64,000 nt of DNA from Chiloscyllium plagiosum (GCF_004010195.1 NC_057749.1:11884839-11948838); one strand, 5' to 3'; shown: positions 6,085 to 43,070, counted from the stretch's first letter. Made by a program: numbers and translations. Notes: a model not told the origin generated them from the letters alone.

Positions 6085-9000
6085 GTCAGAGTCCTATAGC
6101 ACAGAGACAGGCCCTTTGGCGCAAACTGGTCCATCCTGACCAAAATGTCCATCCATGCTAATCCCATTTCCCTGCACTTGGCCCATATCTCCTGAGTCCT
6201 AGCAACATCCTTACAAATTTCTTCTGCACTCTTTCCAGTTTAATAACATCCTTCCTACAGCAAGGTGACCAAAACTGAACACAATACTCTAAGTGCAGCC
6301 TCACCAACATCCTGTACAACTCTGCAACACAACTTCCCAACTTCTACACTTAATGCCCTAAATGATGAAGGCCAGTGTGCCAAAAGCCTTCTTCACTGCC
6401 CTGTCTACCTGTGACTCCCTTTTCAGACTACCATGCACTTGAACTCCAAGGTCCTTCTGTTAAGACCATAAGACATAGGAGTGGAAGTAAGGTCATTCGG
6501 CCCTTCGAGTCCACTCTTGCCATTCAATCATGGCTGATGAGCATTTCAACGCCACTTATCCGCACTCTCCCTGTATCTCTTAATTCCTTGCAAGATTAAG
6601 AATTTATTAATCTCTATCCTGAAGACATTTAACGTCCCGGCCTCCACTGCGCTCTGTGGTGAATTCCACAGGCCCACCACTTTCTGGCTGAAGAAATGTC
6701 TCCTCACTTCCATTCTAAATTGACCCCCTCTAATTCTAAGGCTGTGCCCACGAGTCCTAGTATCCCTGCCTGACGGAAACAATTTCCCAGCATCCATCTT
6801 TTCTAAGCCTTGTGTTATCTTTTAAGTTTCTATTAGATCTGCTCTCAACCTTCTGAACGCCAATAAATACAATCCCAGGATCCTCAGTCGCTCATCGTAT
6901 GTTAGGCCTACCATTCCAGGGATCATCCGTGTGAATCTCCGCTGGACACACCAGTGCCAGTATGTCCTTCCTGAAGTGTGGGGCCCAAAACTGGACACAG
7001 TATTCTAAAAGTGGCCTAACCAGAGCTTTATAAAGTCATAGTACCACCTCACTGCTTTCACATTCCAACCCTCTTGAAACATTACATTTGCTTTCTTAAC
7101 CATGGACTCAACCTGTAAGTCAACCTTTAGAGAATCCAGTAATAGCACTCCCAGATCCCTTTGTACTTTGGCTTTATGAATTTTCTCAGTTTATAAAATA
7201 GTCTTTGCCTGTGTTCTTTTTTCTGAAGTGCAAGACCTCACATTTGCTCACATTGAATTTCATCAGCCATTTCTTGGACCTTTCTCTTAAATTGTCTAAA
7301 TCTTTCCGCAGGAGAAAGTAAGGACTGCAGATGCTGGGGATCAGAGCTGAAAATGTGTTGCTGGAAAAGCGCAGCAGGTCAGGCAGCATCCAGGGAACAG
7401 GAGAATCGACGTTTCGGGCATAAGCCCTTCTTCTTCCTAAAGAATTTTAGCAACAACCGAGGTTAGGCTAATCGGCTTATAATTTTCCATCATTTGTCTT
7501 GCCCCTTTCTTGAACAAGGGGCTTACAACAGCGATTTTCCAATCATCTGGGACTTTTCCTGACACCAGTGGTTTTTGAAAGATTATAACCAATGCCTTCG
7601 CTATTTCTTCAGCCACCTCCCTTAACTCTAGGATGTAGCCCATCCGGGCCAAGAGATTTATCCGTTTTTAGACCTTTTAGCTTTTCTAGCACTTTCTTTT
7701 GTAATGACCACCATACTCAACTCTGCCCCTTGACTCTCCTTAATTGTTGGGATATTACTCACATCTTCCACTGTGAAGACTGACACCAAGTATTTATTAA
7801 GTTAGAACATAGAACAGTACAGCACAGAACAGGCCCTTCAGCCCACGATGTTGTGCCGACCATTGATCCTGATGTTCTTCAGCTATTTCCTTATCTCCCA
7901 TCACTAGCCTTCCTGCATCAATTTGGAGCGGCCCAATCTCTACTTTTGCCTCTCGTTTGTTTTTTATAAATTGAAAGAAACTTTTACTATCATACTGGCT
8001 AGCTTACCTTCATAATAAATCCTCTCCTTCCTTAGTTCTCTCTTTGTTATCCTCTGTTCGTTTTTGGAGTCTTCCCAATCTTCTGAGTTCCCGGTGCTCT
8101 TGGCCACTTTATAGGCTGTCTCTTTTCCTGGGATACATTTCCTGAGTTCCTTCGTCAGCCATGGTTGTCTAAACACACCACCCCCCACCCTCCTCCAAAC
8201 CCCAGGTGATCTTTCTTTTCTTTAGGATGTACCTCTGTACTGTGCCTTCAATTACACCCAGAAACTCCTGCCATTGTTGCTCTACTGCCTTCCCCACTAG
8301 GCTCTGCTTCCAGTCAGTTTTCGTCAGTTCCTCTCTCATGCCCCTCTCTCATTACCTTTATTTAACTGTAACACCATTAAACCCAATTTTGCCTTCTCTC
8401 TTTCGAACTGCAGACTGAACTCTACCATATTATGATCGCTGCCTCCTAAGTGTCCCCTGACTTTAAGATCTTTTATAAAGTATGGCTCCAGAATAGCCTG
8501 CTCCCTTGTGGGCTCCATCATAAGCTGTTCCAAAAAGTCATCCTGTAAGCATTCCATGAATTCCCTTTCTTGGATCCACCGGCAAAATTATTCACCCAGT
8601 CCATTTGCATATTGAAGTGCCCCATGATCACCGTGACCTGATCTTTCTGACATGCCCTATCTATTTTCTGGTACATCTTGCACCCCTGGCCCTGACCACT
8701 GGTTAGGAGGTCTGTACATAACCCCCATTATGGTTTTTTGCCTTTGTGGTTCCTCAACTCCACCCACACAGACTCCACATCATCTGACCCTATATCATTT
8801 AATGCCAAAGATTTAATTTCATTCTTAACTAACAGAGCAACCCCACCCCCTTTGTCCACCTCCTTGTCTTTTCGATAAGTTGCAAATCCTTGGATGTTTA
8901 ACTGCCAGTCCTGAACCCCCTGCAACCACATCTCTGTGATACCTACCACATCATAATCATTTATGATGATTTGTGCTGTTAATTCATCTGCTTTATTTCG

Positions 9001-33299: not shown

Positions 33300-33864
33300 A
33301 ATGATGTGGAGGAGCCAGTGTTGGACTGGGGTGGACAAGTTAAAAATCACCCAACACCAAGGTCTGGGCCAACAGGTTTATTTGGAAGCTGTAGCTTTCA
33401 GAGCGCTGCTCCTTCATCAGGTGGGTGTGGAGCGTAAAATCACAAGACACGGAATTTATAGTGAAAGATTACAGTGTCTTGTAACTGAGATTATATATTG
33501 AACAAAAGCTAGTGCTTCCAAATAAACCTGTTGGACCATAAATGGGCAGCACGGTGGCACAGTGGTTAGCACTGCTGCCTCACAGCGCCAGAGACCCGGG
33601 TTCAATTCCCGACTCAGGCGACTGACTGTGTGGAGTTTGCACATTCTCCCCGTGTCTGCGTGGGTTTCCTCCCACAGTCCAAAGATGTGCAGGTTAGGTG
33701 AATTGGCCATGCTAAATTGTCCGTAGTGTTAGGTAAGGGGTAAATGTAGGGGTATGGGTAGTTTGCGCTTCGGCAGGTCGGTGTGGACTTGTTGGGCCGA
33801 AGGGCCTATTTCCACACTGTAAAATAATCTAATCTAATAACCTGGTGTTGTGTGATTTTTAACT
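33300..33864. mobile_element. Family B palindromic hammerhead element, split by a V-SINE
   Basis: Homologous to 48051-48265. Minus-strand CCAC-CTGATGA-AGGAGC-AGC-GCTCT-GAAAGCTA at 33392-33424; right arm at 33503-33541 resumes at 33838-33864. Confidence 0.75.
33544..33836 (+). mobile_element. V-SINE (HE1-like), full length
   Basis: GGGCAGCACGGTGGCACAGTGGTTAGC...GGTTCAATTCC, V-domain, (AATCT)n tail. Confidence 0.9.
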
Positions 33865-34009: not shown

Positions 34010-34171
34010 CTACTGCAGATGCTAGAGATTAGAGTCAAGATTAGAGTGGTGCTGGAAAAGCCCAGCAGGTCAGGATTTCTGAGGAAGAGCCTTTGCCTGA
34101 AATGTTTATTTTTCTACTCCTCAGATGCTGCCTGACCTGCTGTGCTTTCCAGCACCACTCTAATCTTGACT
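34010..34171. mobile_element. Family A palindromic element, degenerate hammerhead core
   Basis: Inverted arms 34033-34074 and 34131-34171; CTGAGGA-AGAGC-CTTT-GCCT-GAAAT between them. Confidence 0.7.
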
Positions 34172-34329: not shown

Positions 34330-34453
34330 GTAAAAACAATGACTGCAGATGCTGGAAACCAGATTCTGGATCAGTGGTGCTGGAAGAGCACAGCAATTCT
34401 CGAATGCTGCCTGAATTGCTGTGCTCTTCCAGCACAACTGATCCAGAATCTGG
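34330..34453. mobile_element. Family A-related hairpin element, ribozyme part deleted, 16-bp TSD
   Basis: CCAGATTCTGGATCAGTGGTGCTGGAAGAGCACAGCAATTC and its near-perfect inverse; TSD CTGGAAGTACTGCATG at 34314-34329 and 34450-34465. Confidence 0.75.
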
Positions 34454-35401: not shown

Positions 35402-36863
35402 AAACCAATAGTGGATGACAAGTAGATAAATAAAAATGGAACCAGAACAGAGTAATCACAGCCAGTCAACCAATGGTGGAGAGACATTAGAGATGGATGG
35501 TAGAGTCATTAGGTTATAGATTGCAGACTGGTTGAGAAGGTTGACGAAGGGTCACAGTCACATGCAATGTCATTTGACAAGAGCTATCTCTGTACAACAG
35601 ATGGCAGAGATAAAACCCTGGTTGAAGAATTCAAACCTGGAGTTCTGGGTAAGATGACAACAAATTTAAGTGACAGAAACGCATTCAAAATCTTTGGTGA
35701 CAAAAGGGACGTTGAAGATGGCACAGCAGTTTGCTAAAATGTTAAGCCAAGCATTACGCTTTGAGGGAGGGATGAGGAATAATAGGTTTCAAGAAGCAAG
35801 GGGGAATTGATGAGAATAATGGCTTTAAGGAGAACTGATGTATCAAAGTTGGAGGTGAGCACATAGTTGAGCAAATCAGTAGCTGCAGAAATGTTGTAGT
35901 AAATGTTTGGAACTTTGAAAGTGCAGTTTTGAGTTAATTATGGATTGTATCTCCCAGGAGTGGACACAAGAAGAGGTTGAATTGTGGCATAAAAAGGAAA
36001 TGTAATGGTGAGTGATACAAGGAAGTGATCAGAAATGAGCTGATCTGGGATTAATATGATTGCAGTAGTAAGACTTCAGGAGATGGCAGGGTCAAGGAGT
36101 GTCACCATGACTAAGGGTTTACACAATTGAAGAGATTTAACAAGGAAATAAAGACTGTGAATTCAAAGGAGAGAGATAAGGGTTGAAATCTCCAAGAATG
36201 AGAAATTGCTCAGTGCAGAGGGAGGCAAACAGGGAAAATATCTCAATTAGAGGATTTTTTAAATGGGGTGTAGAAAGTGAAGATTTTAAACGAGGGCTGA
36301 GACGGTGGAACAAGCTGAGATGCTTATAGAAGAAGGCAGTAAGGAGTCAGGCCAGAACAGCAACACTGCCATCACAACAGTATATTGAGATTAGAAATGT
36401 AAGGCATAGTCAGGTGAGAGGATTTCACCTTGGTGAGTGTTATCACTTTTCAGACAAGTTTCCATGAAGGCCATGATGTTAATACAAACATCCACAATAA
36501 ACTAGTGAATGGCAAGAAACTTCTTGACTAGTGATGAGGCATTCTAGGGGAAGATCCGCAGAGAAAGACCAGAAGAGTTCATAGACTTGGCAGTGGGACA
36601 TGTGAGTAAGAGGGGGAAGAGTTGGCAAGGTCAGTCCCCAGTGGATGGAGGATCAGCAAGTAGAGTATGGAGGATGCTAAGGAGGCACAAAGAAGTGCGG
36701 ACTTACCAAAAGAGAGTTAAATCTTGAACAGCAGCAAGAGAATCTGGAAGGTCAAAGAGTTTTGAAGAGTTTTGGCCAAATTTTCATTCTTGAGGCATTC
36801 AGTGGAAGTTAGGTCTGCCTCAGGTGAAACTTTTCTGTATGACAGGAACATCACTATAGAGGG

Positions 36864-37053
36864 TCTAGATCAGAGTGGTGCTGGAAAAGCCCAGCAGGTC
36901 AGGCAGCATCCGAGGAGCAGGAAAATCAACGTTTCGGGCAAAAGCCTTTCATTTTCCTGCTCCTCGGTTGCTGCCTGACCTGCTGTGGTTTTCCAGCACC
37001 ACTCTAATCTAGACTCTTGTTTCCAGCATCTGCAGTCCTTATTTTTACCTCAA
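36864..37053. mobile_element. Family A palindromic hammerhead element, 12-bp TSD
   Basis: Inverted arms around ~36926-36952. Minus ATGA-AAGGC-TTTT-GCCC-GAAACGTT, with the core cut by the junction. TSD CACTATAGAGGG at 36852-36863 and 37054-37065. Confidence 0.78.
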
Positions 37054-42365: not shown

Positions 42366-42816
42366 TTTATAATTCTTGTGAGTTTAAAGACAGTTTTCGT
42401 TAGTAGAAAAGATCTTATGTAATTTCTCACATCAAATAGACAACACATACTCATCACCTTGGATGAATTTACAGTGTGACTGAGCTGGAGAATGCAGGAA
42501 CATTTCTGGCACTTCCACAATTTAGTGCTGTTTATATTAAGGCATTCTGCTTGATTGGCACCCCATCCACCAGGTCAAACATACACTCCCTCCACCACCA
42601 GTGCATCGGAGAAACAGTGTGTACATCTCCAAGATGCAAAGCAGCAACTTGCCAAGGTTCATCTTCCAGCACAGAATCTCAACCACTGAGAAAGACAAAG
42701 GCAACAGAAGCATGGGACACCACCACCTGCAATTTCAGCTTCAAGTCACCTTTCACTCTAACCTGGGAAATATTACCATTCCTTCAACCTTGACCATTGC
42801 TTGACCAACACTCAGG

Positions 42817-43034
42817 AACTTTATTGCTGGAACAGCACAGCAGGTCAGGCAGCATCCAGGGAACAGGAGATTCGACGTTTCGGGCACAGGCCCTCCTTCC
42901 TGAAGAAGGGCCTGTGCCCGAAACGTCGAATCTTCTGTTCCCTGGATGCTGCCTGACCTGCTGTGCTGTTCCAGCAATAAAGTTTCAACTTTGATCTCCA
43001 GCATCTGCAGACCTCACTTTCTCCTCGAAGATTT
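42817..43034 (+). mobile_element. Family A palindromic hammerhead element, best-preserved copy, 15-bp TSD
   Basis: Arms 42817-42894 and 42907-42984, nearly perfect. TSD CAACACTCAGGAACT at 42806-42820 and 43035-43049. Confidence 0.85.
42897..42930 (+). ncRNA. Minimal type I hammerhead ribozyme motif, intact core
   Basis: TTC-CTGAAGA-A-GGGC-CTGT-GCCC-GAA-ACGT-C/GAA: CUGANGA core, 4-bp stem II, palindromic ACGU stem III, GUC cleavage triplet, stem I TTC/GAA. Confidence 0.8.
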
Positions 43035-43070
43035 CAACACTCAGGAACTCCTTCCCTAAGAGCACATGAA

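What the first reader, a model, noticed from the sequence alone, without database searches (positions are those of the whole stretch)
42806..43049. Non-coding palindromic mobile element built around an intact minimal hammerhead ribozyme
Seen: a ~220-bp insertion with a 15-bp TSD and two ~78-bp inverted arms. At the hairpin apex is TTC-CUGAAGA-A-GGGC(CUGU)GCCC-GAA-ACGU-C/GAA, a full hammerhead core with a GUC triplet, 3-bp stem I and a loopless palindromic stem III. Established: Penelope-like elements and retrozymes carry minimal type I hammerheads whose palindromic stem III suits dimeric folding, and PLE insertions often have inverted pLTR duplications. Inference: this is a non-autonomous, ribozyme-bearing element mobilised by a Penelope RT/GIY-YIG enzyme. 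I cannot tell whether this shark family is already described.
Basis: partly seen in the sequence, partly recalled or inferred. Interest (0 to 1): 0.8.

Follow-up and report, generated by a model that had tools for sequence, protein, structure and literature searches.

The report
Inverted pair of Penelope retroelement ends
This 214-base hairpin-shaped insertion is two head-to-head copies of the short terminal repeat of a Penelope-like jumping gene that is very abundant in this genome, each carrying that family's usual minimal hammerhead ribozyme motif, so it is real but of a kind already described.

Summary
There is a 214-bp insertion (42821-43034) between exact 15-bp target duplications, with 83-nt inverted arms. 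A complete minimal hammerhead motif sits at 42897-42930 (+).

The Penelope reading is largely right. The right arm is 98-100% identical to the 3' end of longer copies in this genome that carry Penelope-type GIY-YIG endonuclease coding sequence. TSDs are 10-17 bp in 30 of 30 copies. The right arm has the optional 35-nt Penelope "tail". The left arm stops exactly at the tail-less reverse-transcription start.

The motif shows every published feature of Penelope minimal hammerheads. It is kept in 21 of 38 older arms chosen without reference to it. No Rfam hammerhead model matches it.

It is probably not a separate non-autonomous family built around the ribozyme. The same young lineage also gives long copies and single arms. 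Arm 5' ends cluster 0-6 nt before the motif. The palindrome centre differs between copies (19 forms in 30). As one RNA the element folds into a perfect hairpin that buries the ribozyme.

Cleavage is untested, and the RNA reads laid showed no ends there.

Verdict: new member of a known kind, modest interest.

The parts
42806..42820 (.). Left copy of the 15-bp target site duplication
   Evidence: Exact repeat of 43035-43049 (D3). Paralogues of the host repeat hold one homologue only.
42821..42896 (-). Left arm: an inverted, tail-less pseudo-LTR copy. Its outer end is the reverse complement of the internal site that ends at 42989.
   Evidence: I1. In 29 of 30 young copies the left end lies at this same site. 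Tail-less endonuclease-linked copies end at the same place, arm-query positions 89-94.
42894..42907 (.). Junction (apex) between the two arms. It is hypervariable between copies.
   Evidence: 19 different strings in 30 copies whose arms differ by only 0-1 nt in 60.
42897..42930 (+). Minimal type I hammerhead motif: helix I 42897-99 with 42928-30; core 42900-06; extra A 42907; helix II 42908-11 with 42916-19; GAA 42920-22; palindromic ACGT 42923-26; C17 at 42927, with the predicted cut after it.
   Evidence: Features match PMC4209133. Family variation of 5% or more inside the motif occurs only at N7 (42904) and loop II (42912, 42914).
42900..42989 (+). Right arm: pseudo-LTR body running from the hammerhead to the first (tail-less) reverse-transcription start site
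   Evidence: 98-100% identical to arms joined to the PLE 3' UTR and endonuclease coding sequence.
42990..43034 (+). PLE 'tail'. The usual 35-37 nt run to about 43024-43026. This copy runs 9-11 nt further, as do L002 and L085.
   Evidence: Arm hits end at query positions 89-94 or 127-130. 3' ends are listed. Loose ends pile up at 43023-43025 (table 7). The 30-40 bp tail is described in PMC8557442 and PMC11167929.
43035..43049 (.). Right copy of the 15-bp target site duplication
   Evidence: D3.

Best explanation
The element is a minimal insertion of a Neptune-type, endonuclease-bearing Penelope-like element (PLE). It consists of two head-to-head copies of the PLE's short pseudo-LTR with nothing between them.

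Each arm runs from a few bases before the hammerhead to a defined reverse-transcription start. The right arm started at the distal site and so carries the 35-nt 'tail'. The inverted left arm started at the proximal site.

Shown here:
- sequence identity of the arm with the 3' end of PLE copies
- variable TSDs
- two precise 3' ends
- a hot spot of 5' ends just before the motif
- many different junctions between arms

Inferred:
- The template is a short RNA that begins about 4 nt before hammerhead position C3, at an initiator-like TCATTC that lies about 30 nt after a TATA-like TTTTAT. Such an RNA would be read out of the 3' end of any PLE copy.
- The PLE enzyme nicks both target strands about 14 bp apart and primes a cDNA on each, as shown in vitro for the anole PLE.
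- The two cDNAs are then joined head to head.

The hammerhead is the PLE's own minimal, dimer-type or protein-assisted ribozyme, carried along as part of the pseudo-LTR. In the palindromic copy it is a passenger that cannot fold.
For: Structure:
- 15-bp TSD and 83-nt arms. Insertion confirmed by paralogues of the host repeat.
- TSDs of 10-17 bp, median 14, in 30 of 30 copies, with no poly(A).

PLE link:
- A 67-aa endonuclease piece has 48,663 first-look candidates in the genome; 150 were scored, all matching.
- Arm homologues lie downstream of it on the same strand in L032-L046. In L034 the open frame with CX4CX2C and GIY..CxxC..YIGET runs into the motif.
- 57 homologues carry RVT_1 and related domains. 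P0015 has RVT_1 at 291-479 and GIY-YIG at 708-751.
- With the right arm plus tail as query, 39 of 40 places were classified: 11 long copies with native PLE 3' UTR, 10 single arms ending 0-5 nt before C3, 3 cut inside the motif, and 15 palindromes. L055 joins the young arm directly to endonuclease C-terminal coding sequence.
- In 14 of 14 palindromic loci the longer arm ends 1-6 nt before C3.
- The 3' ends are bimodal, at query 89-94 or 127-130. The tail-less end is precise in 9 of 9 arms of the second sample.

Motif:
- All four emergent features of PLE minimal hammerheads are met.
- Of 38 distinct older arms picked by a downstream anchor, 21 keep 11 of 11 core letters, 6 keep 10, and 2 keep 9.
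- Among the 29 arms with at least 9 core letters: extra A in 29 of 29; N7 is A 15, U 13, G 1.
- Helix II is 98.3% paired, with two pairs changed on both sides.
- A second, unrelated-sequence hammerhead family shows the same head-to-head form.

Folding: the first 40 nt from position -4 fold as helix I plus helix II, and the whole element gives a -165.7 kcal/mol hairpin.

Literature:
- Inverted 5'-truncated copy and tail at one end (PMC8557442).
- Inverted pseudo-LTR, 31-bp tail, Inr-like motif and solo pseudo-LTRs (PMC3846280).
- Both strands cut and extended, and two RT start sites (PMC11167929).
Against: - No Rfam hammerhead model matches.
- The reverse-transcriptase parts of the PLE loci read N (withheld). 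The RT is therefore known only from homologues elsewhere, and no full-length young copy was seen end to end.
- Pfam GIY-YIG scores on this genome's own frames are just under the cut-off: 21.9 and 22.1 against 22.6.
- Covariation within this lineage is thin: two pairs and four cells. Related sequences can beat the shuffles without any structure. Helix I is only 61% paired in older arms.
- 10 of 30 palindromes share one asymmetric centre with no obvious microhomology. That fits re-copying of a palindromic source better than independent joining.
- 8 mixed copies all have the C variant on the left and the T variant on the right, although both searches were biased towards that combination.
- RNA reads show no pile-up of ends at 42927/42928 (table 6), though this library type is poorly suited to show one.
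- The transcription start is inferred from DNA ends only.
Confidence: 0.82

Rival explanations
1. A true non-autonomous family. A palindromic master copy is transcribed, and the PLE enzyme copies the whole hairpin RNA, so the palindrome itself is the replicating unit.
For: 10 of 30 copies at different loci, each with its own TSD, share the identical asymmetric centre. More than 1,200 first-look candidates match the whole palindrome. Four copies of the first sample share the same left/right arm mismatch.
Against: There are 19 centre forms in 30 copies, and all palindromes of the second sample differ, although their arms are nearly identical. Centres hold varying lengths of native sequence from before the motif. 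The left end always falls at an RT start site rather than at a transcript start with transduced flank. Single arms and long copies of the same 98-100% lineage coexist.
Confidence: 0.25
2. A DNA-transposon MITE with terminal inverted repeats, in which the hammerhead-like letters are incidental.
For: Long inverted arms and flanking direct repeats.
Against: TSD length varies from 10 to 17 bp. The element is asymmetric, with a 35-45 nt tail on one side only. Single-arm copies have their own TSDs. The arm equals the 3' end of a retroelement.
Confidence: 0.01
3. A non-LTR retrozyme: tandem head-to-tail hammerhead repeats that spread through circular RNA.
For: The hammerhead is type I with a weak palindromic helix III. 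A 2026 preprint ties animal retrozymes to PLE pseudo-LTRs (abstract).
Against: The two arms are inverted, not tandem, so the two motifs lie on opposite strands and cannot excise a unit. No head-to-tail array was seen. The only tandem, L084 with two copies 567 bp apart, repeats the flanks as well.
Confidence: 0.03
4. A hairpin RNA gene (microRNA or siRNA precursor) rather than a ribozyme-bearing element.
For: Perfect 83-bp hairpin at -165.7 kcal/mol. Rfam's best rows are microRNA precursor families. Reads occur in both directions.
Against: Those rows score 37-44 bits against gathering scores of 85-92, so they reflect hairpin likeness only. 98% of the laid RNA reads run on into unlike sequence, so they come from many host transcripts. 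The hairpin is explained by the mode of insertion.
Confidence: 0.05

Closest known systems
Minimal hammerheads (min-HHR) in the pseudo-LTRs of metazoan Penelope-like elements (Cervera and De la Pena 2014, PMC4209133; parts 1 and 2 of the text read)
   Same: CUGANGA, GAAA and UH boxes. No loop 3. Palindromic 15.2-16.2. One unpaired base between A9 and 10.1. G10.1-C11.1. Short helix I. Located in the pseudo-LTR. Thousands of dispersed single motifs, with some pairs on opposite strands 100-700 bp apart.
   Different: Helix II here is only 4 bp, against the 6-8 bp described for several families. The two motifs are closer together than any described in that paper, with the arms touching. This host lineage is not listed in the parts I read.
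Inverted pseudo-LTR plus 'tail' insertion structure of endonuclease-bearing PLEs (Arkhipova et al. 2013, PMC3846280; Craig et al. 2021, PMC8557442; passages read)
   Same: An inverted 5'-truncated copy abuts the direct copy. A 30-40 bp tail sits at one end only. Short variable TSDs. Palindromes at the inverted junction. An Inr-like motif and solo pseudo-LTRs.
   Different: There is no ORF or other body between the two pseudo-LTRs. TSDs are longer (10-17 bp, against the 8-10 bp cited for rotifers). Copy number is very high.
Poseidon element of the green anole, PAc (Frangieh et al. 2024, PMC11167929; main text read)
   Same: Internal initiation of reverse transcription at two nearby sites whose spacing equals the tail. 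Both target strands are cut and extended. The hammerhead lies about 90 nt upstream of the RT start (here 62 and about 97 nt). Uncleaved RNA serves as template. No reads were found at the cut site.
   Different: PAc belongs to the Penelope/Poseidon clade, which lacks the CX2-5CxxC linker. The element here has that linker (Neptune or Nematis type). In PAc the ORF begins inside the hammerhead; here that was not supported.

Membership tests
PLE minimal hammerhead (min-HHR) | Conserved boxes CUGANGA, GAAA and U16.1-H17 in type I order | tested here: met
   Window 42900-42906, 42920-42923 and 42926-42927. 21 of 38 anchor-selected older arms keep 11 of 11 core letters.
PLE minimal hammerhead (min-HHR) | One unpaired nucleotide between A9 and 10.1 | tested here: met
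   A at 42907. A in 29 of 29 arms with at least 9 of 11 core letters. Feature as listed in PMC4209133.
PLE minimal hammerhead (min-HHR) | G10.1-C11.1 closing pair and a paired helix II, with compensatory changes between families | tested here: met
   Closing pair is GC 21, GU 6, AU 2 of 29. Helix II is 98.3% paired, with 2 of 4 pairs changed on both sides; covariation score 0.107 against 0.084 +/- 0.009 in shuffles, reached by 4 of 500. This is thin evidence because the sequences are close relatives.
PLE minimal hammerhead (min-HHR) | No helix III loop, and palindromic 15.2-16.2, allowing a dimeric helix III | tested here: met
   ACGT at 42923-42926. CG in 20 of 29 arms; the other 9 are TG 7, CA 1 and TA 1, which fit CpG decay.
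PLE minimal hammerhead (min-HHR) | Self-cleavage after H17 | not testable with these tools
   Reads show no pile-up of ends (table 6), and the library type is unsuitable for the question.
Rfam hammerhead families (Hammerhead_1 and the others in Rfam 15) | Covariance-model score at or above the gathering score | tested here: not met
   No hammerhead row even at E<=10 on 2 kb or on 61 nt. I take this as expected for a motif without helix III (my inference).
Endonuclease-bearing Penelope-like element (Neptune/Nematis type) | C-terminal GIY-YIG endonuclease with two cysteines between GIY and YIG, and a CX2-5CxxC motif upstream | tested here: met
   Both are seen in the L034 frame. Pfam GIY-YIG scores 21.9-22.1 bits, just under the 22.6 cut-off. 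Criteria taken from PMC8557442.
Endonuclease-bearing Penelope-like element (Neptune/Nematis type) | PLE-type reverse transcriptase upstream of the endonuclease in one ORF | tested here: inconclusive
   RT stretches of this genome's loci read N. Homologues at 45-72% identity carry RVT_1.
Endonuclease-bearing Penelope-like element (Neptune/Nematis type) | Pseudo-LTRs, an adjacent inverted 5'-truncated copy, and a 30-40 bp tail at one end | tested here: met
   compared with PMC8557442 and PMC3846280.
Non-LTR retrozyme | Head-to-tail tandem units, each with a hammerhead, giving circular RNA | tested here: not met
   The arms are inverted, and no head-to-tail array of the arm occurs in the loci examined.
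MITE (DNA transposon derivative) | Fixed-length TSD and terminal inverted repeats reaching both ends | tested here: not met
   TSDs are 10-17 bp, and there is a one-sided 35-45 nt tail.

The most novel reading that the evidence does not exclude
The mini-palindromes are not a family. They are thousands of independent end-products of symmetric, two-strand target-primed reverse transcription on a short pseudo-LTR RNA whose first four bases are helix I of the hammerhead, so that the transcription start and the ribozyme boundary coincide. If so, their variable centres are a natural record of how PLEs join two same-sense cDNAs. That record includes flipped central dinucleotides, 9-12 nt snap-back stubs (L056, L073) and an inverted copy of target flank (L057). 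The genome would then be seeded with perfect-hairpin dsRNA sources that could feed back on the element.
Probability: 0.3. Interest if true: 0.5.

Novelty: new member of a known kind. Interest (0 to 1): 0.3.

Why it matters
The finding confirms that first-pass reading can spot Penelope-type minimal hammerheads that Rfam models miss. It also shows that this cartilaginous-fish-like genome holds a very large and recently active PLE population.

The useful increment is mechanistic. Many near-identical copies show two exact reverse-transcription start sites. They show a sharp 5'-end hot spot at the ribozyme's border. They also show many different head-to-head junctions. That is the kind of in vivo data that the only in vitro PLE system (PMC11167929) lacks.

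It does not change what is known about hammerheads or PLEs as classes.

Tried and rejected
- Rfam scans gave only sub-threshold microRNA-hairpin rows and no hammerhead.
- A Pfam GIY-YIG scan of the whole genome scored 150 of 14,403 candidates and gave one weak hit. It was useful only as a seed.
- The look-up of sequencing runs: no RNA holder was listed. The two raw single-cell poly(A) RNA runs were laid. X22 gave 0 reads. X21 gave 1,415 reads, 98% of which run on into unlike sequence, with no begin/end pile-ups. This is no test of cleavage or of autonomous expression.
- The idea that ATG 42946 opens the PLE ORF, as in the anole element: the frame is open through the tail, but the N-termini of four homologues do not resemble it. 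Dropped.
- A heteroduplex 'flip/flop' model for the centre explains L002 and L011 but not most centres. Kept only as part of the novel case.
- Loci for could not be cut. Short stretches were fetched instead. One of the 40 places (L060) did not match my probe and is unclassified.
- The left/right C/T arm asymmetry could not be interpreted, because both searches favoured the query's own combination.
- Papers: searches found no description of this family or of PLE hammerheads in sharks. Repbase and Dfam could not be consulted, and supplements were not opened, so it may already be catalogued there.

Full report
**Observation**

- An exact 15-nt direct repeat lies at 42806-42820 and 43035-43049 (D3).
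- Two inverted arms lie at 42817-42899 and 42902-42984. They are 83 nt long and 98% complementary (I1).
- On the + strand there is a full hammerhead core: helix I strand 42897-42899; CTGAAGA 42900-42906; one extra A 42907; a 4-bp helix II (42908-42911 with 42916-42919) closed by a 4-nt loop; GAA 42920-42922; the self-complementary ACGT 42923-42926; C17 at 42927; and the other helix I strand 42928-42930.

A simple descriptor for such motifs gave 35 rows in 156,840 nt of window plus fetched loci, against 0-1 in each of 20 shuffles.

The flank belongs to an old dispersed repeat (287 first-look candidates, 75-81% identity). In 3 of 5 paralogues a single homologue of the 15-mer aligns from its first base and is followed directly by the homologue of the right flank. 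A fourth aligns only from window 43045 on, and the fifth does not show it. So the 214 bp at 42821-43034 are an insertion with a 15-bp target duplication.

No hammerhead family appears at E<=10 on 2 kb or on 61 nt. The only rows are microRNA-precursor families, at 37-44 bits on the 2-kb scan against gathering scores of 85-92 and at 9-18 bits on the 61-nt scan.

**Family and mode of insertion**

The genome (3.56 Gb) gave 1,206 first-look candidates for the whole element. The 40 that were scored are 87-100% identical.

In 30 copies, the window included:
- Direct repeats of 10-17 bp (median 14) flank the element in 30 of 30.
- There is no poly(A).
- The 3' end varies by a few bases around one site.
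- The 5' end is, in 29 of 30, the reverse complement of an internal site of the right arm, the site that ends at window 42989.

The element is therefore asymmetric: left arm, right arm, then a 35-37 nt extension. The window copy, L002 and L085 run 9-11 nt further. Variable TSDs, asymmetry and single-arm relatives rule out a DNA-transposon MITE.

**Link to a Penelope-like element**

- A weak GIY-YIG hit gave a 67-aa seed with 48,663 first-look candidates in this genome. 150 were scored and all matched at E<=3.4e-27.
- In loci around those matches, a homologue of the arm (82-94% identity) lies 245-520 nt downstream on the same strand.
- In L034 an open frame with a CX4CX2C motif, then GIY, two cysteines and YIGET, runs on into the hammerhead letters. 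Pfam GIY-YIG scores 21.9 bits against a cut-off of 22.6.
- These are the marks of PLE endonucleases of the Neptune/Nematis type, according to passages of PMC8557442.
- The 57 longer homologues found carry RVT_1, PF28514, PF26215 and, in some, GIY-YIG. P0015 has RVT_1 at 291-479 (29.4 bits, cut-off 29.6) and GIY-YIG at 708-751 (25.0 bits, cut-off 22.6). The closest named ones are uncharacterised proteins of a bamboo shark.
- The reverse-transcriptase stretches of this genome's own loci read N (withheld), so I did not see the RT here.

**The young lineage**

To remove the bias of querying with a palindrome, I searched with the right arm downstream of helix II plus the tail. There were 451 candidates, and 40 places were scored at 98-100% identity. 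I fetched short stretches around them.

Of the 40 places, 39 could be classed. L060 did not match my probe.
- 11 are long copies with the native PLE 3' UTR upstream. One of them, L055, is joined by an internal deletion straight to endonuclease C-terminal coding sequence.
- 10 are single arms, several with a clear TSD visible in the printed flanks, that end 0-5 nt before C3.
- 3 are cut inside the motif.
- 15 are palindromes, at 14 loci.

In 14 of 14 palindromic loci the longer arm also ends 1-6 nt before C3. So the arm is a unit with a defined 5' end, which makes it the pseudo-LTR.

The native sequence just upstream reads TCATTC, with the preferred ends at its A or the following Ts. A TTTTAT lies about 30 nt before it (print). 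That looks like an initiator with a TATA-like box, as Arkhipova et al. noted for rotifer pseudo-LTRs (PMC3846280 passages). This transcription start is my inference and was not measured.

**Two reverse-transcription starts**

Arm homologues beside endonuclease sequence end either at query position 89-94 or at 127-130. The first class ends at the base that mirrors the left boundary of the palindromes. The tail-less outer ends in the second sample are precise in 9 of 9. The 35-nt difference matches two published descriptions:
- the two adjacent RT start sites of the anole element (PMC11167929 main text).

That paper also shows that the enzyme cuts and extends both target strands. That is the simplest route to a head-to-head pair whose outer ends are both RT start sites.

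**The centre of the palindrome**

Among 30 copies there are 19 different centre strings, while the arms differ by 0-1 nt in 60. All palindromes of the second sample differ as well.
- Some centres hold a few native bases from before the motif on one or both sides.
- Some have the central dinucleotide flipped, which puts the CUGA box on the other strand.
- L056 and L073 have only 9-12 nt inverted stubs.
- L057 has an inverted copy of target flank.

This argues for many independent joining events.

Against that, 10 of 30 share one asymmetric centre at loci with different TSDs. Eight mixed copies all carry the C variant on the left and the T variant on the right, although both searches favoured that combination. 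A replicating palindromic source for part of the copies cannot be excluded.

**The hammerhead**

Cervera and De la Pena (PMC4209133, parts 1-2 read) list four features that were not part of their search descriptor:
- families with compensatory changes;
- a base between positions 9 and 10.1;
- G10.1-C11.1;
- palindromic 15.2-16.2.

The window motif has the last three.

To test conservation without selecting on the motif, I picked arms by a 54-nt anchor downstream of it (113 hits). I set aside 61 arms of the young family, 11 weak hits and 2 with N. That left 38 distinct older arms.
- 21 keep 11 of 11 core letters, and 20 of these have 4 of 4 helix II pairs.
- 6 keep 10 of 11 and 2 keep 9 of 11.
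- The other 9 are mostly truncated arms or arms of the flipped side.

In the 29 arms with at least 9 core letters:
- The extra base is A in 29 of 29.
- N7 is A 15, U 13, G 1.
- Loop II has 7 forms.
- The first helix II pair is GC 21, GU 6, AU 2.
- The second helix II pair is GC 25, AU 2, GU 1, AC 1.

The formal count on 30 rows (A1) gives:
- helix II 98.3% paired;
- 2 of 4 pairs changed on both sides;
- covariation 0.107 against 0.084 +/- 0.009 in shuffles, reached by 4 of 500;
- helix I only 61% paired.

This support is real but thin, since the rows are close relatives.

Most broken cores are changes at the three CpGs of the motif, as expected for dead copies.

Reads and contigs of the whole superfamily laid on the window show differences of 5% or more inside 42900-42927 only at 42904 (N7), 42912 and 42914 (loop II). 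Fifteen sites vary over 42897-42989 as a whole. The caveat is that only records at least 90% alike were laid.

A second family has an unrelated helix II (5 bp), helix III GC and the same extra A. It occurs at window 33392-33420 (-) and, again as a head-to-head palindrome, in L007.

**Can it work here?**

Folded as one RNA, the 206-nt element is a perfect hairpin of -165.7 kcal/mol with the core fully paired. A single arm starting 4 nt before C3 is different. Its first 40 nt have the hammerhead secondary structure as minimum-energy fold: helix I of 4 bp, helix II, and an open core. In the 131-nt arm that fold is only 0.7 kcal/mol above the minimum. In the window copy helix I is 3 bp, because the fourth base was lost at the junction.

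Published minimal hammerheads cut poorly and only as dimers (PMC4209133). The anole one cuts only with its protein and is not needed for insertion in vitro (PMC11167929).

All copies here contain the whole motif, so uncleaved RNA was the template.

The one usable raw RNA run gave 1,415 reads. 98% of them run on into unlike sequence, and there are no begin/end pile-ups. That is no test of cleavage.

**Comparison and verdict**

Every structural feature found here is described for PLEs:
- minimal hammerhead in the pseudo-LTR;
- inverted adjacent truncated copy;
- one-sided tail;
- Inr-like motif;
- solo pseudo-LTRs;
- palindromes at the inverted junction.

What is specific here is the reduction to two bare pseudo-LTRs, the very high copy number, the sharpness of the three end points and the host lineage.

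My searches found no paper on this. Repbase and Dfam could not be checked.

I class it as a new member of a known kind.

Noticed in passing
window 33392-33420 (-); L007 about 440-560: A second minimal-hammerhead family with an unrelated 5-bp helix II, helix III GC and the same extra A after A9. It is a single arm in the window and a head-to-head palindrome in L007. Its downstream part is another very common repeat of this genome.
   Followed up: partly
window 7298-7433 (-): An older single arm plus tail, cut just inside the CUGA box. By eye the flanks on both sides look like LINE-type reverse-transcriptase coding sequence (not tested).
   Followed up: no
window 42845, 42878, 42879: In the raw RNA run, T>C differences occur in one read direction only: 14 of 100, 15 of 52 and 12 of 49, against 2, 0 and 0 in the other direction. 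They are almost absent from DNA contigs (0.03-0.2% of depth). This could be A-to-I editing of antisense hairpin RNA, or a single expressed variant copy.
   Followed up: no
L084 (G000:C99154:1500-2450): Two identical palindromic copies 567 bp apart with identical flanks. This is a tandem duplication or satellite-like repeat that carries the element along.
   Followed up: no
L057, L056, L073: Unusual 5' junctions of single arms: a 16-nt inverted copy of the upstream target flank (L057), and 9-12 nt inverted stubs of the arm itself (L056, L073). These look like snap-back or template-switch scars.
   Followed up: partly
window 34343-34434, 34013-34171 and 36857-37051: Further decayed palindromic relatives, including a short one without any hammerhead part and one whose right-arm motif is deleted. 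The 64-kb window holds at least six copies of the superfamily.
   Followed up: partly
window 42946-43034: An ATG at 42946 opens a frame that stays open through the tail, and one relative has an in-frame 3-nt indel. N-termini of four homologous PLE proteins do not resemble it, so it is probably not the ORF start.
   Followed up: partly
rows X15-X20: Runs labelled with two other organisms (B, C) hold 41-44% of the sampled words of this stretch, so close relatives of the element occur in other species.
   Followed up: no
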